Assembly (NCBI GenBank): GCA_005110385.1
Contig: DUDT01000013.1
Coordinates: 22,136 to 86,135 of the forward strand
DNA length: 64,000 bases
Direction: 5' to 3'
Source: Candidatus Melainabacteria bacterium
GTDB taxonomy: Bacteria; Cyanobacteriota; Vampirovibrionia; LMEP-6097
Shown: in pieces, positions 8,693 to 49,165 of the stretch
How positions within the stretch are numbered: the first letter of the stretch is position 1
Layout of the letters: every line of letters begins with the position of its first letter
Translations under genes and position numbers: made by a program
The notes under the pieces: generated by a model
Database searches by the model: none
The model's input: the letters and a program-made list of their open reading frames with translations, nothing else
Told to the model about the DNA's origin: nothing

Positions 8693-8750
8693 GGGGCGTA
8701 TAGCGGAACTCCAATTTCTGCGTTTTCGTCGTCCACATGATCCTCATGTA
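8693..8750 (-). repeat. Half copy of the dispersed palindromic element
   Basis: Reverse complement TACATGAGGATCATGTGGACGACGAAAACGCAGAAATTGGAGTTCCGCTATACGCCCC matches the right half of the copies at 14810 and 47691; lies between convergent rplY and rluD. Confidence 0.92.
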
Positions 8751-8759
8751 AGCTTGCTA

Positions 8760-14576: not shown

Positions 14577-16190
14577 ATGCCCTTAAACGCCTTTCCTAAA
14601 GTAAAAACCAGAATAGCACCTAGCCCAACAGGTAATCTTCACTTAGGTACCGTCAGAACAGCTCTCTATAACGTGCTTTTCGCTAAAAAGCACCAAGGTG
14701 AATTTTTCTTTAGACTTGAAGATACTGATAGACAAAGAAGTGAAGAACAGTTTACTCAAGAAATCTTAGAAGGTTTTAAATGGTTAAATATCTCTTGGGA
14801 TAAGCCAGGAGGACGTGTAACCGAACGAACAAGTTCAAGGCTAAGGAGGACGAATGACCGCAGTGTACTGGGTGTACATGAGGATCATAAGGACGACGAA
14901 AACGCAGAAATTGGAGTTCCGTTACACGCCCCAGAAACTCTCATAGGCTTAGGTGAAGATGGGATAGTCAGACAATCCCTCAGAGAAGCTGTGCATAACA
15001 GTTATATAGAAAGATTAATTAACGAGGGTAAAGCTTATAGATGCTTTGCGACAGTAGAAGAATTAGACGCTATGCGTGAAGCTCAGAAAGCTCGTAAAGA
15101 GATAGAAAAATATGATAATCGCTCAAGAGCTATTTCCAAAGATGATTCAGAAAAATTATTTAGAGAAGGTAAACCATATGTTGTTAGATTAAATCTAGGT
15201 GAAGATCACGTGATCACTTGGCTGGATTTAATCAGGGGTGAAGTATCCATTAATACTAAAGATCTAGGTGGAGACCCAGTTATTCAGAAATCTACAGGGC
15301 AGGTTCTCTATAATTTTGCAGTAGTGATAGATGACTATGAAATGCAGATCTCACATATCCTGAGAGGAGAAGATCATATAAGTAACACAGCGAAACAGAT
15401 CGCTATTTATGAAGCTTTAGATTTTCCTATTCCCGAATTCGGTCACCTGCCTTTAATTTTCACGAAAGATAAACAGAAGCTCTCTAAACGTAAACATGGT
15501 GATATCGCTTCAGTTAAGACTTATCAAGCACAAGGCTATTTAGCAGAGGCACTAGTGAACTATCTTTTGGGCACTAGTTATAATTCAGCGAAATATGGTG
15601 AAATATTTACTATCCCTGAAGCTGCTGAAGATTTCGAAATAACTAGTGTTAGTAAAAGCCCGGCTATCTATGATATTCAAAAATTAAACTGGTATAACCG
15701 TGACTACATAAGTAAACTAAACTACCAAGAAATATTAACTTATGTTTCGAGATTTTCAAAATTCGATTTGGAAAATAGCTCTCTGTTCAATTCATCTCAA
15801 ATCCAGTCAATAATTGAATCTACTAAAGAAAGTCTTGATAAATTTGAACAGATAGATGAACATATTAACTATTTTTTTGAAGATTTTAAACTTAATGATA
15901 TTACTTTAGTTACGATCGCCGAAGAAGGTAAAGAAGTTATCCATGAATTCATATCCCTTATCGAAAGTGGTTCTCTAGATTTTACTGATCAAAATTCAAT
16001 TAAAAATGGTATTAATGCTATTGGTGCAAAATTAAACCTCAAAGGCAAAAAACTATTTTTCCCAATTCGTGTAGCCATTAGTGCAAAAACTAGTGGGCCT
16101 GAACTAGGATTTATCGCAGTACTTTTAGGTAAAGAGAAGATCGTCGAAAGATTAAATTTAGCCTTACTAGAAACCTCACACAGACACTAA
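14577..16190 (+). CDS. gltX: Glutamate--tRNA ligase with an in-frame palindromic insertion
   Basis: RIAPSPTGNLHLG, LEDTD, RGEDH, KLSKR; ~41 extra residues after ISWD. Confidence 0.97.
   Translation: MPLNAFPKVKTRIAPSPTGNLHLGTVRTALYNVLFAKKHQGEFFFRLEDTDRQRSEEQFTQEILEGFKWLNISWDKPGGRVTERTSSRLRRTNDRSVLGVHEDHKDDENAEIGVPLHAPETLIGLGEDGIVRQSLREAVHNSYIERLINEGKAYRCFATVEELDAMREAQKARKEIEKYDNRSRAISKDDSEKLFREGKPYVVRLNLGEDHVITWLDLIRGEVSINTKDLGGDPVIQKSTGQVLYNFAVVIDDYEMQISHILRGEDHISNTAKQIAIYEALDFPIPEFGHLPLIFTKDKQKLSKRKHGDIASVKTYQAQGYLAEALVNYLLGTSYNSAKYGEIFTIPEAAEDFEITSVSKSPAIYDIQKLNWYNRDYISKLNYQEILTYVSRFSKFDLENSSLFNSSQIQSIIESTKESLDKFEQIDEHINYFFEDFKLNDITLVTIAEEGKEVIHEFISLIESGSLDFTDQNSIKNGINAIGAKLNLKGKKLFFPIRVAISAKTSGPELGFIAVLLGKEKIVERLNLALLETSHRH
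14810..14932 (+). mobile_element. Full-length palindromic element (MITE/RPE-like) inserted in frame in gltX
   Basis: Terminal inverted repeat GGACGTGTAACCGAAC / GTTCCGTTACACGCCC; highly similar to the copy at 47691-47815. Confidence 0.88.
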
Positions 16191-18167: not shown

Positions 18168-19996
18168 GTAAAATAACCAACCAAACAAGAAGAATTCTTA
18201 AATCTAGCAGCGGTGAAATCAAGACCGTTACTAAGACGATTAAGCACGACTCTAGTCAAATAACTTATGATCCAAGCAAAAAAGTAAAAGTAATTGCCCT
18301 TGGTGGTTTATTTGAAATCGGAAAAAATACTTGGATCTTTGAATGTGGTGACGATATTATGCTTGTCGATGCTGGACTCGCCTTCCCGACAGCAAGCATG
18401 ATAGGAGTAGATATAGTACTTCCTAAAATTAATTATTTAGTCGCTAACAAAGATCGCATCAGAGGCATGATAGTGACCCATGGTCATGAAGATCATATTG
18501 GCGGTATAGTACCGATGCTTAGGGAAATTAATATTCCGATTATTTATGCACCTGGTCTAGCTTATGCTTTAATTCAAAGTAAACTCAAAGAAGCGAATAT
18601 ACTACACCAAAAGATGGTCTGGACTAAAGCTAGAGATAGAGTACAGATTGGTCAACATTTTTCAGTTCAATATATAAGAAATAATCATAGTATCGCAGAT
18701 AGCTACTGCCTAATCATCGATACACCAGCAGGCAGAATCGTACATAGTGGTGATTTTAAATTCGACCACAGCCCAGTAGAGAACCAGTATTTCGACATTC
18801 GCAGCTTAGCTGCGGCTGGAGAGTCTGGCGTAGACCTGCTTATAAGCGATAGCACCAATGCAGAAAGAGCTGGCTATACACCATCAGAAAAAGCTGTTAT
18901 ACCTAAGCTTAAAGAAATGATCTTTAATTCTAAAAAGAAATTATTTATCACGACCTTTGCAAGCCAAGTAAGTCGTGTGAAAATCGTCTTACAGCTTGCT
19001 CTGCAAGCTAATAAGAAAGTAACCATATTTGGTAGATCGATGGTTAACCTCGCTAATATCTCTAAGGAACTGGGTTTCATTTCCATACCTGATAATTTCA
19101 TAATCAAGCAAGAAGAAGTTAATAAAATCCCTCCAGAAGATCTAGTTATCTTGACGACAGGCAGTCAGGGAGAGCAGTTCGCAGCCCTTTCTCGTATCGC
19201 CCGTAATGAGCATAAATACGTAAAAATACAAGCTGGAGATCAAGTGCTGATAAGTGCTTCACCCATACCAGGTAATGAAAAATCTGTTAACCATCTAATA
19301 GATAGTTTATTTGCTCGCGGTGCTGATGTTATCTATGGACTAGGCCAAACTATTCATGTCTCTGGCCACGCTAGCCAAGAAGAACAGAAAATGCTTTTAA
19401 ATCTCTGCAAACCAGTTAACTTTATGCCTTGTCACGGTGAATATCGAATGCTGCTTAAGCATGGTGAAACTGGGATGAAATGCGGAGTTAATCCAGACAA
19501 TATTTTCGTACTTGACAACGGCGATATTCTTGAGATGCAGGATGGTAAATGTTCTATTAAAGAGAGAGTCGATTCTGGTATAGTTCTGGTCGATAACGAC
19601 AATGTCGGCAGGCTGGATGAGGACATCATCCTAGAAAGAAAAATGATCTTAAGTGATGGTTTTATATTAATCGTTGTTAACATTAACGCTTACGGTCAGT
19701 ACAGCGCTGAGCCTAAATTAAATACCAAGGGTATACTGCTACCGCTTGGTTTTAATGAAAAAAGCTTTAAAAAAGAACTGATCAGCTTAACTCACGAAGC
19801 ACTTGAAAGCATTATAGATAAAGAAAAGCCATCTTCTATAGACAATTTAGATAAGTTTTCACTAAAACTACAGAGCATTATTTCTTCTAAAATTTATAAT
19901 TTCCTTGATAATAGAACTCGTAGATATCCACTGCTTGAAGTTGTGGTTTTAGGTAATCATGGTGCGGTAAAACCCGTAGTCGCTGGTTTAAACTAG
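18164..19996 (+). CDS. rnj: Ribonuclease J; start inferred at CTG 18164
   Basis: THGHEDHIG, HVSGH, PCHGEYR; conserved ALGGLFEIGKN lies in frame upstream of the ORF-track ATG at 18359. Confidence 0.93.
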   Translation: MSKITNQTRRILKSSSGEIKTVTKTIKHDSSQITYDPSKKVKVIALGGLFEIGKNTWIFECGDDIMLVDAGLAFPTASMIGVDIVLPKINYLVANKDRIRGMIVTHGHEDHIGGIVPMLREINIPIIYAPGLAYALIQSKLKEANILHQKMVWTKARDRVQIGQHFSVQYIRNNHSIADSYCLIIDTPAGRIVHSGDFKFDHSPVENQYFDIRSLAAAGESGVDLLISDSTNAERAGYTPSEKAVIPKLKEMIFNSKKKLFITTFASQVSRVKIVLQLALQANKKVTIFGRSMVNLANISKELGFISIPDNFIIKQEEVNKIPPEDLVILTTGSQGEQFAALSRIARNEHKYVKIQAGDQVLISASPIPGNEKSVNHLIDSLFARGADVIYGLGQTIHVSGHASQEEQKMLLNLCKPVNFMPCHGEYRMLLKHGETGMKCGVNPDNIFVLDNGDILEMQDGKCSIKERVDSGIVLVDNDNVGRLDEDIILERKMILSDGFILIVVNINAYGQYSAEPKLNTKGILLPLGFNEKSFKKELISLTHEALESIIDKEKPSSIDNLDKFSLKLQSIISSKIYNFLDNRTRRYPLLEVVVLGNHGAVKPVVAGLN

Positions 19997-20055
19997 GGGA
20001 CTGCCCGCAAACTCCAATTTCTGCGTTTTCCTTGTTCGTTTGTGAGCAGTCCCCT
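19995..20055 (-). repeat. Internally deleted element copy with a different terminal stem; likely rnj 3' hairpin
   Basis: AGGGGACTGCCCGCAAAC / GTTTGTGAGCAGTCCCCT enclosing TCCAATTTCTGCGTTTTC-CTTGTTC. Confidence 0.85.
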
Positions 20056-21708: not shown

Positions 21709-21792
21709 TAAAGCGTTTGCTTTTAAGTTAAATAGGCAAAGTAAAATTAATCCAGAGCTCCATTTTCCTTCATTCTTGGTGACCATCTATCT

Positions 21793-22092
21793 TTGAAGAA
21801 AAATGACCCCTTAAAATTTCAGAAAAAATTCAGCATACTCATATTTGTGCCAGATTATAAAAAAGTCAATGAATATCGTATTGAAATTATTAAGTCACTA
21901 GGTTTCTGGCTTATAAGCCCGACTGGTTTAGTGGTTTATATGTTTTTATTTGATGATACTAAATTATTTCAAGAAATGAATTTAATAAAAGGCATGATAG
22001 CTTTACTGCTACTAGTTTCTGGGATAAAATGCTTAGATAAAGCTTATGAAATAAATAAAGAGCTTGATAAAGAGGAAAGCTACAATGTCTAA
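21793..22092 (+). CDS. Small two-TM membrane protein; start may be the internal GTG near 21847
   Basis: Two hydrophobic segments; 3' end overlaps the start of the 22085 ORF. Confidence 0.55.
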   Translation: MKKNDPLKFQKKFSILIFVPDYKKVNEYRIEIIKSLGFWLISPTGLVVYMFLFDDTKLFQEMNLIKGMIALLLLVSGIKCLDKAYEINKELDKEESYNV

Positions 22093-22225
22093 AACACTGC
22101 TCATAGAGATACAACAAGCGTCACTAGTACTTTTCAATGTTGCATGCCTCTACATTGGCATTCACTGGGTTCTTTTCAGAGATCGTTCCAAGGATAAAAA
22201 AACTAAAAAAATTACACAGTCATAA
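22085..22225 (+). CDS. 46-aa single-TM peptide MSKTLLIEIQQASLVLFNVACLYIGIHWVLFRDRSKDKKTKKITQS
   Basis: Translated by hand; GAGG RBS; TM segment plus basic tail; two decayed paralogs downstream. Confidence 0.55.
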   Translation: MSKTLLIEIQQASLVLFNVACLYIGIHWVLFRDRSKDKKTKKITQS

Positions 22226-22352
22226 TATTAAAAACTTTCTTGGAAAATCTTTTACGATAATAGGTCTAATCTTCGGGTTCTTATTTGCTTATGGAGGTTA
22301 CATAATGCTTTTAATGAGTTACCATAAAATAAGACGCTGGGAGGATTAGAAT

Positions 22353-22532
22353 ATGGCTTGGGATTATTTTTTTACTATGTCGGCTATTACAGTCCTATTT
22401 TTTCTTTTAATTTATCGCTTGCATTATGGGTTTTATAAAATTGATTTAGAATGTGGTGATAAAAATGCAGTAAAGCCCACATTAGCAGAGGTTTTTCTTG
22501 GGATTAGAAAAAAGAAGTCTGAGGAAAAATGA
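22353..22532 (+). CDS. 59-aa membrane peptide MAWDYFFTMSAITVLFFLLIYRLHYGFYKIDLECGDKNAVKPTLAEVFLGIRKKKSEEK
   Basis: Translated by hand; GGGAGGA RBS; the 5'-truncated duplicate at 23211-23359 differs at synonymous positions. Confidence 0.65.
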   Translation: MAWDYFFTMSAITVLFFLLIYRLHYGFYKIDLECGDKNAVKPTLAEVFLGIRKKKSEEK

Positions 22533-22937
22533 CCCCGTTTTTTATGTTCATTTATTGGAGAACAATCTGCTGTAGGTGATCAGAGAAGAACTGCAATGTC
22601 TAAAACACTACTCATAGAGCTACAACAAGCTTCACTGGTACTTTTCAACGTCGCATGCCTCTACACCCCCGCATTCACTGGGTTCTTTTCAGAGACCGCT
22701 CCAAGGAAAAAACTAAAAAACTTAAACAGCCTTAATACCATTCTGGAAAATTCTGTTGAGTCACTAAAACTCTGAACCAAGTTCAAGAACACGAATTCCG
22801 CACCATAGACTATAAAAGCTGCATTTTACTTAAAAAAATTATGAGCAAAAATTTTACATTTATTTCCACATTTGTTAATATTTTAAATATAAGTTAAGTA
22901 CACAAGTATAAATTAATTGAGGAGAAAATAGATTATG
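22384..22937 (+). repeat. Duplicated block, copy 1
   Basis: Aligns with 23211-23767 (offset ~827-830): near-identical over the first ~260 bp, diverged in the middle, conserved again at the promoter/RBS. Confidence 0.92.
22596..22740 (+). pseudogene. Frameshifted copy of the 22085 peptide gene
   Basis: ATGTCTAAAACACTACTC..; ACCCCCGCA replaces ATTGGCA and shifts the frame. Confidence 0.6.
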
Positions 22938-23174
22938 GCACCAAAGATACTTGGTCCAAGGGATCGACTTACGTACCTTAGAATGGGTGCTAATGAAGGT
23001 CATACTCCACAAATGGGTGCTAATGAAGGTCATACTCCACAAGCTGACTCAAATCAGCCCTGGAACTTTCGTCCACAAGCTTATATAGAAGAGAATGAAC
23101 CTAATGAGCAAGTGGGTTCATCAAGCAGACAATTAGGAGTAGCTTTAGCAACTAATCCAGAGCAACTTAGTTAA
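22935..23174 (+). CDS. 79-aa hydrophilic peptide with an internal MGANEGHTPQ x2 repeat
   Basis: GAGGAGA RBS; perfect 30-bp tandem duplication at 22982-23041. Confidence 0.7.
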   Translation: MAPKILGPRDRLTYLRMGANEGHTPQMGANEGHTPQADSNQPWNFRPQAYIEENEPNEQVGSSSRQLGVALATNPEQLS

Positions 23175-23210
23175 TTCTCAGCCCTATTTTTCTTCATTCT
23201 CGGCAGGCAT

Positions 23211-23767
23211 CTATTACAGTCCTATTTTTTCTTTTAATTTATCGCTTGCATTATGGATTTTATAAAATCGATTTAGAATGTGGCGATAAAAATGCAGTAA
23301 AGCCCACATTAGCAGAGGTTTTTCTTGGGATTAGGAAAAAGAAGTCTGAGGAAAAATGACTCCATTCTTTATGTTCATTTATTGGAGAACAATCTGTTGT
23401 AGGTGATCAGAGACGAAAGCTGCAATGTCTAAAACACTACTCATATAGATACAACAAGCTTCCCTAGCGCTTTTTAATGTCGCATACCTCTAAATCCCGA
23501 CATTCACTAGGTTCTTTTCCGAAATTAGGACTACACAAGGGATATGAAAAAATTTCCAGATCAAAATGGTATTTTGATATTAAGTCTGAAAACTCTAAAC
23601 CAAGTTCAGAAACATGAATTCTGCACTGTAAACGATAGCAGTTAAAATTTAATTGAAAAATATTTTTTTCGAACAAAAAAACTTTACTTATATTTTTATA
23701 TTTGTTAATATCTTAAATATAAGTTAAGTACGTAAGTACAAATCAATCAAGGAGAAAATAAATTATG
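23211..23767 (+). repeat. Duplicated block, copy 2
   Basis: Holds a 5'-truncated copy of the 22353 ORF and a 22085 paralog (ATG 23425) with TAG at codon 8. Confidence 0.92.
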
Positions 23768-23914
23768 GTATCATGTAGACCCGCATCATTCACAGCAGCT
23801 CCAGCAGCAGTAGCAGCAGCTCCAGTAGCAGCAGCTCCAGTAGCAGCAGCTCCAGTAGCAGCAGCTCCAGCTGTTGAAAATAGACCAGCAGCAGCAGCTT
23901 TAGCAGCTAAATAA
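23765..23914 (+). CDS. 49-aa Ala/Pro-rich peptide MVSCRPASFTAAPAA(VAAAP)4AVENRPAAAALAAK
   Basis: AAGGAGA RBS in the same context as 22935; GTAGCAGCAGCTCCA x4 at 23810-23869; strong hairpin downstream. Confidence 0.75.
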   Translation: MVSCRPASFTAAPAAVAAAPVAAAPVAAAPVAAAPAVENRPAAAALAAK

Positions 23915-30795: not shown

Positions 30796-30895
30796 GAATT
30801 AAAAAAGATACTAATTTTAGAATTTCATCAGATATTATTTTTGGGGAAAAATGACCCCTTAAAATTTCATATTCATAAAGAGCAAAATATCTTTT

Positions 30896-47655: not shown

Positions 47656-47690
47656 ATCAAGAATAATACCAGAAAAATTATCCTTCTAAT

Positions 47691-47815
47691 TTGGGCGTGT
47701 AGCCAAGCGAACAAGTTCAAGGCTGAGGAGGGTGAATGACCGCAGTGCACTAGGTGTGCATGAGGATCATGAGGACGACGAAAACGCAGAAATTGGAGTT
47801 TCGCTACACGCCCAA
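47691..47815 (+). mobile_element. Full-length palindromic element; supplies the last codons and stop of the 47804 gene
   Basis: Perfect 13-bp TIR TTGGGCGTGTAGC / GCTACACGCCCAA; core highly similar to the gltX insertion. Confidence 0.88.
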
Positions 47816-49165
47816 TTTTACTGGCTTAAGCGTAACTAAATACTCAGCTAAAGCCTCAACTTCTTTATCAGTTCCGACTAAAGGTGGCATGATATTTAGA
47901 TAGCTATTCTTTTCTGGATCAGTCTCACGCATCATTAACAAGAAAGTTTTAATACCCTCTAAATCACGTTCGCCCAGTAGCTTTTTCATACTGCGGTAGC
48001 CATCGGTAGTATGGCAAATCATACACTGCTGCCTAAACATAGAAACACCTATATTATCTGGATCTTCCCACTTACTAAAAGCGGCAAAGCTATCTTTGTT
48101 TATGGTCTCTAAATCAGCCTTTCTGATGCCATTAGAATACATATAGTTATAAATAACATAAGGCTTTCTAAGCATCTCCCTTGACCATTCAGACACAGAA
48201 GTCACTCCTAGACCGCAGACTAAAAAAGCTATAGCAGAAGCAAAAGAAAAACTTCTAGGGTTTAAATAAGGACCCACTAAGGCGAAAACCAGTACAGTAC
48301 CTGAAAGTATAAGGCTTAGATAAATAGATCTAGCTAAAATAGAAAAATTACCTACTCCAGAACTCTGAATCCCCGTAAATATATTAGTTATTACCGCTTG
48401 AGGGACTTGTGAGAAAAACCAAAAACCAACAATCGGTCCAATTAAAAATACTGGGATAAACCATTTAGAAGAATACTTCAGCATATAGGCTCTGAAATTA
48501 GCGATATCTTCACTCTCAGAAGCTTTCAATTGTGCAGAGGTAATCAAAGAATACATACCAGCAATGGCTAGCATCACTAGCAGTCTGAGAATTAGAGATG
48601 GCCAATATGTAGGATTAAAGAAACCTTCATACCAAGCCTTAGATTCAATCCAGCCACCTGGTGTCAGCATAAAGCTTAAAATGCCGTTAATGGTGATAAG
48701 TGTAAACACCGATAAAACTGCATACCACTGTGCAAGAACCAAATGTAACTCTTTAGAAACCTTATCCCATGTATAAAAATAAACTAAAACTGTAGCAATC
48801 TCAGCTACAAAGAATAAATACTCAGTAGCCCAGCCCAAAGAATATATCTGTATCAAAGAAGCCGTGCCATCTGGACTAACTAAACTGATAGAAAACCAAA
48901 TCCCTACTCCAGTTACACTACCAGCAACAGTCGTAACCATCATAAAAAATTTAGAATGCTTTCTTAAATAGGCATAGAGCATTTCTGAGTTATGTCTTAA
49001 AGTCAGATCATTAGATTCGCTTCTCTTTAATGCCAAATATTCTGTAACAGCAAAGAAAATGCCACCACCCACAGCGAAGTGTGAAATAAAGACATGGATT
49101 ACAGATATCAAGCCCACTGCCCATGAGCCACCTAAACCAGGTATAGACCAAAGTGGATAATTCAT
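47804..49165 (-). CDS. Cytochrome bd subunit I-like protein fused to cytochrome c
   Basis: HVFISHFAVGGG, TGVGIW, WATEY.FF..E, EWSREMLRKPY; C-terminal CMICH. Confidence 0.8.
   Translation of the reverse strand: MNYPLWSIPGLGGSWAVGLISVIHVFISHFAVGGGIFFAVTEYLALKRSESNDLTLRHNSEMLYAYLRKHSKFFMMVTTVAGSVTGVGIWFSISLVSPDGTASLIQIYSLGWATEYLFFVAEIATVLVYFYTWDKVSKELHLVLAQWYAVLSVFTLITINGILSFMLTPGGWIESKAWYEGFFNPTYWPSLILRLLVMLAIAGMYSLITSAQLKASESEDIANFRAYMLKYSSKWFIPVFLIGPIVGFWFFSQVPQAVITNIFTGIQSSGVGNFSILARSIYLSLILSGTVLVFALVGPYLNPRSFSFASAIAFLVCGLGVTSVSEWSREMLRKPYVIYNYMYSNGIRKADLETINKDSFAAFSKWEDPDNIGVSMFRQQCMICHTTDGYRSMKKLLGERDLEGIKTFLLMMRETDPEKNSYLNIMPPLVGTDKEVEALAEYLVTLKPVKLGV

What the first reader, a model, noticed from the sequence alone, without database searches (positions are those of the whole stretch)
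14810..14932. Palindromic element inserted in frame into glutamyl-tRNA synthetase
Seen: GltX has ~41 extra residues (GRVTERTSSRLRRTNDRSVLGVHEDHKDDENAEIGVPLHAP) right after ISWD. The DNA for them is bounded by a ~16-bp inverted repeat, and a closely similar copy lies at 47691-47815, almost wholly outside coding sequence. The HIGH-like (HLGT) and KMSKS-like (KLSKR) motifs are intact. Established: Rickettsia palindromic elements (RPEs) insert in frame into housekeeping genes. Inference: this is an RPE-like family that adds new peptide sequence to proteins, in a lineage where I do not know of one. It is either translated as a surface loop or removed at the RNA level.
Basis: partly seen in the sequence, partly recalled or inferred. 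Interest (0 to 1): 0.85.

Follow-up and report, generated by a model that had tools for sequence, protein, structure and literature searches.

The report
Mobile hairpin repeat inserted in-frame in genes
A 121-base hairpin-shaped mobile repeat has landed in frame inside the glutamyl-tRNA synthetase gene, and some twenty other genes, of a non-photosynthetic cyanobacterial relative, adding a 42-residue loop much as the palindromic elements of Rickettsia do, and its fold is conserved across a whole bacterial order.

Summary
GltX (14577..16190) carries a 121-nt imperfect palindrome (14811-14931) flanked by a 5-bp target-site duplication (CAGGA/CAGAA). That adds 126 nt, or 42 codons, in a variable loop after WD.

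- **Family size:** 57 near-full copies and about 110 fragments in this 1.9-Mb Caenarcaniphilales (Melainabacteria) MAG.
- **Mobility:** related genomes have clean empty sites, so the element is mobile and MITE-like.
- **In-gene copies:** 23 of the 57 near-full copies lie in real genes (GlyS, ValS, TrmD, LexA, AcrB and others), all in one frame. Remnant deletions in gltX orthologues are multiples of 3, so read-through translation is likely and RNA removal unlikely. AlphaFold models the insert as a low-confidence loop.

**Beyond it:**
- A covariance model finds the family in 30 of 31 genomes of the order and more weakly beyond.
- Helices covary strongly around conserved asymmetric loops, with G-U in excess over A-C. 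This looks like a constraint on a folded single strand, not on a plain transposase-binding inverted repeat.
- There is no Rfam match.
- No cognate transposase, RAYT or reverse transcriptase was found.

**Verdict:** a new variant of a known kind. The mobilising enzyme is unknown.

The parts
14577..16190 (+). gltX (glutamyl-tRNA synthetase) ORF, 537 aa, host of the in-frame copy
   Evidence: ORF. Orthologues found in 31 of 31 relatives. HLGT and KLSKR are invariant columns. The AlphaFold model has mean pLDDT 87 and pTM 0.81.
14811..14931 (+). 121-nt hairpin element copy (subfamily A arms), read in its stop-free sense frame as part of GltX
   Evidence: The covariance model R1 scores it at 139 bits. 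It corresponds to GltX residues about 79-119, where pLDDT is below 50 (residues 81-119).
14806..14810 (.). Left copy of the 5-bp target-site duplication (CAGGA; CAGAA in sister species)
14932..14936 (.). Right copy of the 5-bp target-site duplication (CAGAA)
14811..14826 (+). Left arm of the outer stem P1 (16 nt); its sequence varies between subfamilies but stays complementary to the right arm
14916..14931 (+). Right arm of the outer stem P1
14858..14884 (+). Most deeply conserved core: CC, GCAG, apical hairpin UGUAC-loop-GUACA (14864-14878), UGAGG
   Evidence: Conserved from this genus out to GC-rich members of the phylum sample.
47693..47813 (+). Second full copy (121 nt, 89% identical), essentially intergenic
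47688..47692 (.). Target-site duplication of the second copy, left (AATTT)
47814..47818 (.). Target-site duplication of the second copy, right (AATTT)
8693..8753 (-). Right-half fragment of an element copy (model positions about 62-119), between convergent ORFs
19997..20042 (-). Short right-end fragment of an element copy, just after the stop of ORF 18359..19996

Best explanation
The segment is one copy of a non-autonomous mobile DNA element: 121 bp, a rod-like imperfect palindrome, with no coding capacity for a transposase.

- **Insertion (shown).** The element inserts by a staggered cut that duplicates 5 bp of target. Because 121+5 = 126 nt = 42 codons, and one sense frame has no stop, an insertion in that phase leaves the host gene open.
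- **The gltX copy (shown).** It landed in a naturally variable loop after the WD motif, before the species of this genus diverged.
- **Fate in the protein (inferred).** It has since been kept, or trimmed in frame, and is translated as a charged, probably disordered loop that leaves the catalytic core intact.
- **Scale (shown).** The same family has colonised at least 21 other ORFs of this genome in the same frame.
- **Mobilisation (inferred).** Mobility, or whatever keeps the family alive, depends on the fold of one strand (RNA or single-stranded DNA) rather than on the sequence of the termini. Helices covary freely, while asymmetric purine-rich internal loops are conserved across the order.
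- **Enzyme.** The enzyme that moves it acts in trans and was not identified.
For: **Anatomy.**
- 144 of 152 distinct full copies in genus loci are exactly 121 nt.
- 118 of the 152 have at least 14 of the outer 16 positions paired.

**Target-site duplication.**
- The flanking 5-mers are identical in 32 of 152 copies and match at 4 of 5 positions in 37 more. With the right 5-mer shifted, the counts are at most 2 and at most 6.
- 90 full copies in relatives had enough flank to test, and 78 mapped with both flanks on one G000 contig. Of these, 18 sites are filled in G000.
- At least 9 sites are clean empties, where the whole hairpin is missing and the 5-mer occurs once.

**In-frame insertion.**
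- Only one frame per strand of the consensus is open.
- In G000, 23 of 57 near-full copies lie in ORFs of 160 aa or more in sense orientation, all at frame offset 0, against 1 in antisense.
- In relatives' loci, 48 of 103 copies lie in ORFs of 200 aa or more at offset 0, against 1 in antisense.
- Hosts are real genes: 20 of 20 ORFs scanned match Pfam families. These include AcrB, GlyS-beta, ValS, TrmD, LexA, Sua5, PBP transpeptidase, M17 peptidase, photolyase and PhoX.

**gltX history.**
- The insert is absent from all 23 GltX outside the genus.
- It is full length in G000, G004 and G001.
- G005 and G006 carry a 93-nt internal deletion and G003 a 105-nt deletion, both in frame.

**Structure prediction.** GltX is modelled at mean pLDDT 87 and pTM 0.81, with residues 81-119 below 50.

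**Conserved fold.**
- Model R1 finds the family in 30 of 31 genomes and 13 of 14 genera of the order.
- On 27 distinct diverged copies, 90.7% of cells pair, against 60.7% when shuffled (0 of 500 shuffles reach it) and 31-42% when partners are slid. 37 of 42 pairs change on both sides.
- This includes pairs that were not in the model (32-103, 33-102, 34-101, 42-94, 43-93).

**Strand asymmetry.**
- G-U 47 against A-C 13 in that set.
- A closing G-T pair is kept in 125 of 140 genus copies.
Against: - Translation of the insert is inferred, not shown. The one metatranscriptome run gave no contig bridging a gltX/element junction.
- No autonomous partner was found.
  - G000 has no long pairs of the element's ends, and relatives' loci have none flanking a transposase gene.
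  - The near-closed genome G064 has no split halves.
  - DDE_Tnp_1 copies in the genus have unrelated ends.
  - Tn3 transposase was not found in G000, and RVT_1 was found in 1 of 7 genus genomes.
  - Y1_Tnp was found in 0 of 7 genus genomes.
  - All these genomes are incomplete MAGs (54-93% complete).
- A fixed 5-bp duplication is typical of DDE transposases or integrases acting on double-stranded ends (recalled). That sits awkwardly with a single-strand substrate.
- Within the genus the G-U excess is small: 100 against 72.
- Alignment A3 was fitted to a model that already held part of the structure, so pair counts lean towards it.
- The strong sense/antisense bias in genes (23:1 and 48:1) is not explained by stop codons alone.
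Confidence: 0.8

Rival explanations
1. It is an ordinary MITE moved by a DDE transposase that binds double-stranded terminal inverted repeats. On this view the apparent RNA-like covariation has two possible sources. The two ends may co-evolve to fit the same protein. Or hairpin-templated repair or template switching may keep the arms of a palindrome complementary. The fold itself would then have no role.
For: - There is a constant 5-bp target-site duplication and there are clean empty sites.
- DDE_Tnp_1 genes occur in 5 of 7 genus genomes.
- Insertion sequences are often lost from MAG assemblies.
- Within the genus, G-U against A-C is only 100 to 72.
- A paper seen only in a search listing proposes that template switching can create and maintain hairpins (PMC8794818).
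Against: - The most conserved positions are the asymmetric internal loops (CAAGGC, GAG/CGA, CCGSAG/UGAGG, AACGCAG). These are not mirror images of each other.
- The termini and helices vary freely, even in the first bases: GG, GA, AG, AA, AT. That is the reverse of what a protein reading both ends alike would give.
- The deep set shows G-U 47 against A-C 13, and there is a conserved G-T pair.
- The DDE copies seen have ends CCAGGGC...CATTCTAA, unlike the element.
Confidence: 0.3
2. The element is removed from the gltX transcript (intron-like excision at the base of the hairpin, followed by ligation), so the protein never carries the 42 residues.
For: - The outer stem brings the two ends and the duplicated 5-mers together. 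Cutting out 126 nt would restore the ancestral reading frame exactly.
- The fold is conserved far beyond what a passive insert needs.
Against: - If copies were spliced out, sense copies in the two frames with stops should survive in genes. Instead 23 of 23 sense in-gene copies in G000 and 48 of 48 in relatives are in the one open frame.
- The gltX remnants in G003, G005 and G006 have lost most of the fold, yet they are exact multiples of 3 and keep the ORF open.
- Both the short and the long variants are 3n once the duplication is added.
- No self-splicing or ribozyme family matches.
Confidence: 0.05
3. The repeat is chiefly a host-useful structured RNA module, for example a protein-binding or RNase-processing hairpin or a transcript-end stabiliser. 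It spreads by transposition and is retained for that function, and the in-gene copies are side products.
For: - The fold is conserved across the order and possibly the phylum, with conserved loops.
- Many copies lie just downstream of genes or between convergent genes: 15 of 37 not-in-gene copies lie between convergent ORFs.
- GC is 50% in a 36% GC genome.
Against: - Among intergenic copies between co-oriented genes, orientation is only 11 sense to 6 antisense.
- Copy number swings from 2 to more than 100 between genera, and sites are polymorphic between species. That fits a selfish element better.
- No expression data could be obtained.
Confidence: 0.12
4. The insertion in gltX is an assembly artefact of a repeat-rich MAG.
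For: Contigs of short-read assemblies break inside the repeat core, and no single public contig spans the whole element.
Against: - X9 contigs cover 14577-14850 and 14895-15266 with 0 differences. An X15 contig covers 14577-14870.
- Independent assemblies of G004 and G001 carry the insert at the same codon. G003, G005 and G006 carry remnants of it there.
Confidence: 0.01

Closest known systems
Rickettsia palindromic elements (RPE; Ogata et al. 2000, as summarised in passages of the review PMC10969869)
   Same: - A palindromic repeat of about 100-150 bp.
- Dozens of copies in a small genome.
- A large share lies inside unrelated housekeeping ORFs, always in a frame that encodes a conserved peptide. 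In this genome 23 of 57 near-full copies do so; the review gives 'nearly half' for RPE.
- The host proteins stay intact.
   Different: - The lineage is unrelated: Melainabacteria, order Caenarcaniphilales.
- Sequence similarity to RPE was not tested, because no RPE library was at hand.
- Here a 5-bp target-site duplication and clean empty sites are shown.
- Length plus duplication is exactly 3n.
- The fold covaries across a whole order around conserved asymmetric loops.
Bacterial MITEs in general (Correia, ERIC, RUP, QMITE1/2, cyanobacterial Nezha). QMITE data come from the abstract of PMC5896051; the others from review passages or recall.
   Same: - Small, non-coding and multi-copy.
- Terminal inverted repeats and a target-site duplication.
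- Insertion polymorphism between relatives.
- Occasional in-frame fusions with ORFs.
   Different: - No parent insertion sequence with the same ends was found.
- The termini are the least conserved part and the internal loops the most conserved.
- The family is recognisable by structure in 13 of 14 genera of the order, although blastn sees it in only 2 genera.
REPINs mobilised by RAYT (Bertels and Rainey 2011, PMC3116915; seen only as a search listing and abstract start, the rest recalled)
   Same: - A hairpin of about 100 nt whose arms keep pairing through compensatory change.
- Long persistence within a lineage.
- Mobilisation in trans by an enzyme encoded elsewhere.
- Tandem clusters.
   Different: - Y1_Tnp (the RAYT/IS200 fold) was found in 0 of 7 genomes of this genus, although it occurs in 19 of 31 genomes of the order.
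- A 5-bp target-site duplication is present, which IS200/IS605-type transposition does not make (recalled).
- Here the conserved parts are internal loops, not terminal REP boxes.
Structured non-coding RNAs linked to mobile elements (retron msr/msd, group II intron domains, omega/bridge RNAs), from recall
   Same: Conserved loops with covarying helices, strand specificity, and G-U tolerance.
   Different: - Those RNAs lie next to their protein gene and are single or few in copy number. This element is dispersed, 121 nt, and flanked by target duplications.
- RVT_1 was found in 1 of 7 genus genomes and the TnpB zinc-ribbon domain in 1 of 7.
- No Rfam family matches.

Membership tests
MITE (miniature inverted-repeat transposable element) | Short (under about 600 bp) and without a transposase gene | tested here: met
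   The element is 121 nt in 144 of 152 distinct copies. The only open frames are about 40 codons long.
MITE (miniature inverted-repeat transposable element) | Terminal inverted repeats | tested here: met
   At least 14 of the outer 16 positions are complementary in 118 of 152 copies. The gltX copy folds with z = -4.17.
MITE (miniature inverted-repeat transposable element) | Target-site duplication of fixed length | tested here: met
   A 5-bp duplication matches at 4 or more of 5 positions in 69 of 152 copies, against at most 8 of 152 in shifted controls. The 5-mer occurs once at 9 empty sites.
MITE (miniature inverted-repeat transposable element) | Dispersed, multi-copy, with presence/absence differences between relatives | tested here: met
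   G000 has 169 nhmmer hits, 57 of them near-full. Among 78 mapped sites, 18 are filled and at least 9 are clean empties.
MITE (miniature inverted-repeat transposable element) | A related autonomous insertion sequence with the same ends | tested here: inconclusive
   None was found. The genus genomes are MAGs of 54-93% completeness, in which insertion sequences are often missing.
Rickettsia palindromic elements (RPE) | Membership of one of the RPE sequence families of Rickettsia | not tested
   No RPE sequences or models were available in the tools. The host is a Melainabacterium (record titles), so homology is not expected.
Rickettsia palindromic elements (RPE) | In-frame insertion in many unrelated ORFs, encoding one conserved peptide | tested here: met
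   23 sense copies at frame offset 0 lie in 21 ORFs of G000. 48 of 103 copies in relatives do the same. Host genes are shown by Pfam.
Rickettsia palindromic elements (RPE) | Insert tolerated at the protein surface, outside the catalytic core | tested here: inconclusive
   The insert lies in a loop of variable length and is modelled with pLDDT below 50, while the rest of GltX is confident. There is no experimental structure or activity data.
REPIN/RAYT system | A RAYT (Y1 HUH transposase) gene in genomes that hold the repeat | tested here: not met
   PF01797 was found in 0 of 7 genus genomes, each of which holds 6 to more than 100 copies.
REPIN/RAYT system | Hairpin made of two inverted REP boxes, whose pairing is maintained | tested here: inconclusive
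   Pairing is maintained, but the conserved blocks are internal loops rather than terminal REP boxes.
Any described RNA family (Rfam 15) | Match to a curated covariance model | tested here: not met
   The gathering-threshold scan of the window found only 3 tRNAs. E-value scans of the element and of six diverged copies found nothing credible.
Self-splicing or excised intervening sequence | Absent from the mature RNA | not testable with these tools
   The only RNA run gave no contig bridging a junction. Indirect evidence from frames and in-frame deletions argues against excision.

The most novel reading that the evidence does not exclude
The repeat may represent an undescribed class of mobile element in Cyanobacteriota, whose identity is a rod-like folded strand.
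- The fold has conserved purine-rich, G-A-type internal loops and a CCGSAG / apical hairpin / UGAGG core, while the helices and even the termini vary freely.
- It would be moved by an enzyme outside the usual DDE, RAYT and reverse-transcriptase families, one that recognises structure and makes a 5-bp staggered cut.
- One genus has evolved 3n-length versions (126, 204 and 207 nt including the duplication), which lets it live inside essential genes.
Probability: 0.3. Interest if true: 0.9.

Novelty: new variant of a known kind. Interest (0 to 1): 0.72.

Why it matters
**A second clear case of massive in-frame colonisation of genes.**
- After Rickettsia, this is a second case of a palindromic mobile repeat colonising housekeeping genes in frame on a large scale, in an unrelated, free-living freshwater lineage.
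- It comes with features the Rickettsia case lacks: a defined target-site duplication, empty sites, and an exact 3n design.
- That makes "selfish DNA as a source of new protein loops" testable by comparison. The element sits in five aminoacyl-tRNA, tRNA and translation-related genes here: GltX, GlyS, ValS, TrmD and Sua5.

**An open mechanistic question.**
- The fold is conserved across an order while the termini drift, and no known mobilising enzyme is present.
- What recognises and moves such an element?
- The answer could be a structure-specific transposition or integration system.

**A practical point.** These repeats break MAG assemblies and inflate protein lengths in annotation. One MAG that holds the repeat is labelled Proteobacteria.

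Tried and rejected
**Retroposition with 5' truncation.**
- Right-end fragments outnumber left-end ones about 4 to 1.
- A 5-bp repeat flanks them in 0-4 of 80 cases, no more than in the controls (0-5).
- RVT_1 was found in 0 of 1 (own genome) and 1 of 7 genus genomes.
- I read the fragments as deletion remnants, as in gltX of G003. The right-end bias itself stays unexplained.

**Core inserted into pre-existing short hairpins.**
- G005 and G006 gltX keep only the arms, which suggested this.
- It is rejected because the empty sites lack the whole hairpin, arms included.

**Search for an autonomous partner.**
- Long inverted repeats of 400-6000 bp in G000 gave only pairs of small copies.
- Left and right halves 0.3-6 kb apart in loci turned out to flank ordinary genes: RNR, RecR, aldolase.
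- G064 core motifs are all compact.
- The G000 DDE_Tnp_1 locus is a degenerate IS5-like remnant without matching ends.
- The IS ends in relatives are unlike the element's.
- Tn3 transposase: none in G000. rve: one 88-aa fragment. TnpB zinc ribbon: 1 of 7 genus genomes. Y1_Tnp: 0 of 7 genus genomes.

**Genes next to the long variants.** The only similarity they share is the element-encoded peptide itself.

**Sequencing runs.**
- RNA run X20 holds element-like contigs, but none bridges a gltX junction.
- Its element-to-flank depth ratio is not above that of the DNA runs.
- This gives no verdict on expression, retention or removal.
- No public contig spans the whole element.

**Target-site duplication outside the genus.** A free scan of boundaries is over-fitted. 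In family f5 the hairpins extend beyond the ends set by the model. I make no claim there, beyond single clean examples such as L201 (TTTTT/TTTTT).

**Scripts that went wrong.**
- First attempts at boundaries mis-set the ends. They were replaced by fixed anchors.
- The pair tally used wrong P2 indices. It is discarded and was redone.

**Tools and papers unavailable.**
- Paper PMC3393498, on Synechococcus MITEs, is not held. Its elements could be related to the GC-rich hits, and I could not check this.
- Supplementary files of papers were not consulted.
Full report
**What is there**

The ORF 14577..16190 (+) encodes a 537-aa glutamyl-tRNA synthetase. Its HLGT and KLSKR motifs are invariant columns in an alignment of 26 orthologues.

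After ISWDKPG it carries extra residues encoded by an imperfect palindrome. That stretch folds as one long hairpin: -42.7 kcal/mol, z = -4.17, and 0 of 200 shuffles fold as well.

A second copy lies at 47693-47813, 121 nt long and 89% identical. A right-half fragment lies at 8693-8753 (-) and a right-end fragment at about 19997-20042 (-). Both are intergenic.

**Organism**

All were in MAGs titled Vampirovibrionia, Candidatus Caenarcaniphilales or 'Cyanobacteria bacterium REEB446', in an unnamed 'bacterium', or in one MAG labelled Proteobacteria.

The window's genome is a 1.91-Mb, 25-contig MAG with 35.8% GC. The element has 50% GC.

**The insertion in gltX**

GltX of 30 genomes was aligned.
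- The 23 genomes outside the genus have no such segment. At that site they have a loop of variable length: from WDG-EM to WDEGPDVGGPYGPY.
- Within the genus, G000, G004 and G001 have the full insert.
- G005 and G006 keep only the left arm and 9 nt of the right arm, 93 nt less.
- G003 keeps only the last 17 nt, 105 nt less.
- Both deletions are multiples of 3 and the ORFs stay open.

The insertion therefore predates the split of these species, and the segment has been under selection to stay in frame.

Contigs of run X9 cover both junctions with no differences, and a contig of X15 covers the left one. Neither run is flagged as a possible source. A misassembly is excluded.

**A mobile family with a 5-bp target duplication**

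nhmmer finds 169 hits in G000: 57 near-full, 22 medium and 90 short.

With boundaries fixed from two conserved anchors, 144 of 152 distinct full copies (G000 plus loci of relatives) are exactly 121 nt. The 5 nt on either side are identical in 32 copies and match at 4 of 5 positions in 37 more. With the right 5-mer shifted, the counts are at most 2 and at most 6.

I mapped the flanks of copies from relatives onto G000.
- 90 copies had enough flank to test, and 78 mapped with both flanks on one contig.
- 18 sites are filled in G000.
- At least 9 sites are clean empties.
- At the empties the entire hairpin is missing and the 5-mer occurs once (TAGAA, AAGAT, CTAAA, CTCAG and others).

The duplicated 5-mers follow a weak A-W-G-A-T preference.

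For gltX the duplication is CAGGA/CAGAA, and CAGAA/CAGAA or near it in sister species. The ancestral sequence therefore read ...CCAGAAACT... (P-E-T). The event added 121+5 = 126 nt = 42 codons.

**In-frame life inside genes**

One frame on each strand of the consensus is free of stops. In G000, 23 near-full copies lie in sense orientation in ORFs of 160 aa or more, and all 23 are in that one frame. One copy is antisense, near an N-terminus.

All 20 host ORFs scanned match Pfam families:
- **Transport and cell wall:** AcrB-type transporter, PBP transpeptidase.
- **Translation and tRNA:** GlyS beta, ValS (two tandem copies at contig ends), TrmD, Sua5/TsaC, a CCA/poly(A) polymerase head domain, a GTPase.
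- **DNA repair and regulation:** LexA, photolyase (two tandem copies).
- **Metabolism:** M17 aminopeptidase, HPPK-GNAT, PhoX, an SDR, a GlpD-like oxidase, a SIS-domain protein, a GHMP kinase.
- **Other:** an AAA_14/DUF4143 protein, a DUF3748/PD40 protein.

In loci from relatives, 48 of 103 distinct copies sit in ORFs of 200 aa or more in the same frame, and 1 in antisense. Many of these are orthologous, so the counts are not independent.

A longer variant has an extra apical domain. It is 202 nt in 3 copies and 199 nt in 1 copy. With the duplication that gives 207 or 204 nt, again 3n. Three of these four copies lie in long ORFs.

About 90% of the genome is coding by a crude ORF call. The 40% in-gene share is therefore what purifying selection has left.

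AlphaFold2, run on the 26-sequence alignment, models GltX at mean pLDDT 87 and pTM 0.81. Residues 81-119 fall below 50. That is compatible with a flexible loop but proves nothing.

**Translated or removed?**

If the hairpin were cut out of the RNA, sense copies in the two frames with stops should also persist in genes, and none does. Remnants that have lost the fold are still in frame. I therefore favour translation. No RNA or protein evidence could be obtained.

**The unexpected part: a conserved fold**

Within the genus, copies share a core of about 85 nt at more than 90% identity. Their outer 16-20 bp fall into at least four subfamilies, in the order left arm then right arm:
- GGGCGTGTAGCC... 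with ...GGCTACACGCCC
- GGCACTGTTGCC... with ...GGCAACAGTGCC
- GGGACTGCTCGC... with ...GCGAGCAGTCCC
- GAGACCGCTGCA... with ...TGCAGCGGTCTC

The arms differ between subfamilies but are always complementary within a copy.

blastn sees the family only in this genus and in one other, 8 of 31 relatives. A covariance model built from 70 copies sees much more.
- **Order:** 30 of 31 genomes and 13 of 14 genera, with E from 1e-11 to 1e-38.
- **Class:** 35 of 151 sampled genomes (G000 included). These are all families of the order plus 5 of 17 genomes of family f5. None was found in the other families sampled.
- **Phylum:** 4 further genomes of 150 sampled, weakly, with E from 1e-7 to 1e-10.
- Two GC-rich members still read GGGCCGCAG-CGUAC-loop-GUACG-UGAGGACCC.

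**Covariation in the diverged copies**

The diverged copies show that the 'internal loops' of the genus copies are helices elsewhere.
- After CAAGGC: AUGC/GCAU, UUGC/GCG, AGUU/AACU, GCAA/UUGC.
- Next helix: UCC/GGA, UCCC/GGGA, UCUC/GAGA, GCUAC/GUAGC.
- Next helix: AUGA/UCAU, AAAA/UUUU, GCCA/UGGC, UUGAGU/ACUCAA.
- In this genus some of these positions are tandem G-A/A-G juxtapositions instead.

On 27 distinct sequences and 42 pairs:
- 90.7% of cells pair, against 60.7% after shuffling (0 of 500 shuffles reach it) and 31-42% with slid partners.
- 37 pairs change on both sides.
- Several of these pairs were not in the search model.
- The alignment was fitted to a model containing the other pairs, which favours them.

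G-U outnumbers A-C 47 to 13 in this set. Among 140 distinct genus copies the count is 100 to 72, plus a G-T closing pair kept in 125 of 140.

The conserved positions are asymmetric: CAAGGC, GAG opposite CGA, CCGSAG opposite UGAGG, and AACGCAG. They are not mirror images. Even the first bases of the element differ between genera.

This is the pattern of a functional folded strand. It is the reverse of what is expected from inverted repeats that bind one protein at both ends. No Rfam family matches the element or six diverged copies.

**What moves it**

This is unknown.
- No long element with the same ends exists in G000, nor in about 0.7 Mb of loci from relatives.
- In the three-contig genome G064, all 17 left core motifs lie about 20 nt from a right motif.
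- G000 has one degenerate IS5-like gene and one rve fragment. It has no Tn3 transposase and no RVT_1.
- In the genus, DDE_Tnp_1 occurs in 5 of 7 genomes, but with ends CCAGGGC...CATTCTAA.
- RVT_1 occurs in 1 of 7 genus genomes, the TnpB zinc ribbon in 1 of 7, and Y1_Tnp (RAYT/IS200) in 0 of 7, although Y1_Tnp is in 19 of 31 genomes of the order.
- These are MAGs of 54-93% completeness, so absence is not proven.
- Right-end fragments are not flanked by 5-bp repeats. That argues against 5'-truncated retroposition.
- Intergenic copies show no strong orientation bias relative to neighbouring genes, 11 to 6.

**Comparison with what is known**

The 2024 review of prokaryotic MITEs (PMC10969869, passages read) calls in-frame fusions by MITEs 'not unusual'. 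It singles out RPEs as the extreme case. The present family matches that behaviour in an unrelated lineage.
- It meets the operational definition of a MITE, except for a known parent insertion sequence.
- It resembles REPINs in being a maintained hairpin moved in trans. It fails the RAYT test in this genus and makes a target duplication.
- Full-text searches for Melainabacteria with 'miniature inverted-repeat' (1 paper, a general IS survey) and for Caenarcaniphilales with 'repeat' (10 papers) gave no title or abstract start that concerns such a repeat. I read none of these papers.
- I could not read the Synechococcus MITE paper or any supplementary files.

**Verdict**

The element is a new variant of a known kind, an RPE-like MITE. 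It has three added features that deserve follow-up:
- a fixed 5-bp duplication with an exact 3n design;
- a fold that is conserved from order to phylum level and covaries;
- no recognisable mobilising enzyme.

Noticed in passing
G000 genome-wide; window examples 8693-8753 and 19997-20042: Right-end fragments of the element outnumber left-end fragments about 4 to 1. They often lie 5-15 nt upstream of a full copy in the same orientation, for example C13:12692-12741 before C13:12757-12876. They are not flanked by 5-bp repeats. The bias is unexplained.
   Followed up: partly
G000:C12:213145-213387, C18:111039-111284, C14:105378-105623, C13:1-207; L216 (G031) 1368-1888: There are tandem pairs or arrays of the element, with a period of 126 nt in this genus and 133 nt (four copies) in G031. 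In ValS and photolyase they encode in-frame repeats of 42 residues. Contigs C13 and C18 end inside such arrays within valS.
   Followed up: partly
G000:C14:263377-263577, C12:86415-86615, C24:12119-12314, C11:52566-52766: A long variant (202 or 199 nt) has an extra apical domain. That domain contains a GTAA-capped stem whose sequence and length covary between copies, and an AAGCTTGAT-loop-ATCAAGCTT hairpin. About 20 more such variants are seen in loci of relatives.
   Followed up: partly
window 22071-23773: A unit of about 830 bp is duplicated in tandem (families D2-D6, 76-96% identical). It includes a putative start region (GGAGAAAATAGATTATGG).
   Followed up: no
window 23778-23900: A 15-nt tandem repeat (CAGTAGCAGCAGCTC-like) lies next to the duplicated 830-bp unit of window 22071-23773.
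   Followed up: no
window 22982-23041: An exact 30-nt tandem duplication lies within the first copy of the duplicated 830-bp unit.
   Followed up: no
G000:C20:30422-30884 (outside the window): A 19-nt word (AGAGACCAATTCATAACTT in reverse complement) recurs every 66 nt at least 8 times. This is a CRISPR-like periodic array.
   Followed up: no
L075, L080, L085 and other loci of record RFQS01: A public MAG titled 'Proteobacteria bacterium WB4_1_1465' carries many copies of this Melainabacteria-specific repeat. It behaves as a member of the same genus, so its label is probably wrong.
   Followed up: no
L257, L258, L261, L262 (G001, G006): An IS with a DDE_Tnp_1 transposase (ORFs of 344-410 aa) and ends CCAGGGC...CATTCTAA sits at contig ends in sister species. 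In G000 only a frameshifted IS5-like remnant is left, at C12:103411-104377.
   Followed up: partly
G064: In this three-contig genome the copies are strongly strand-biased by contig. C1 has mostly minus copies, C2 mostly plus, and C3 only minus. This hints at a link with replication or gene orientation.
   Followed up: no
L033 (G001 gltX) against L036 (G005 gltX): G001 and G005 share the left-arm variant GGGCACGTAGCC. In G001 the right arm carries the exact compensating changes (GCTACGTGCCC). G005, which lost the core, has the uncompensated CACACGCCCC. This may be arm-to-arm correction or replacement of the copy.
   Followed up: no
window 21788-21821 and 30836-30869: A 34-nt repeat (TAT-TTTG--GAAAAATGACCCCTTAAAATTTCA, 91% identical) occurs twice in the window. 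A similar GGGGAAAAATGACC follows the element copy at G000:C12:225867-225986. It may belong to another small repeat family or to a terminator.
   Followed up: no
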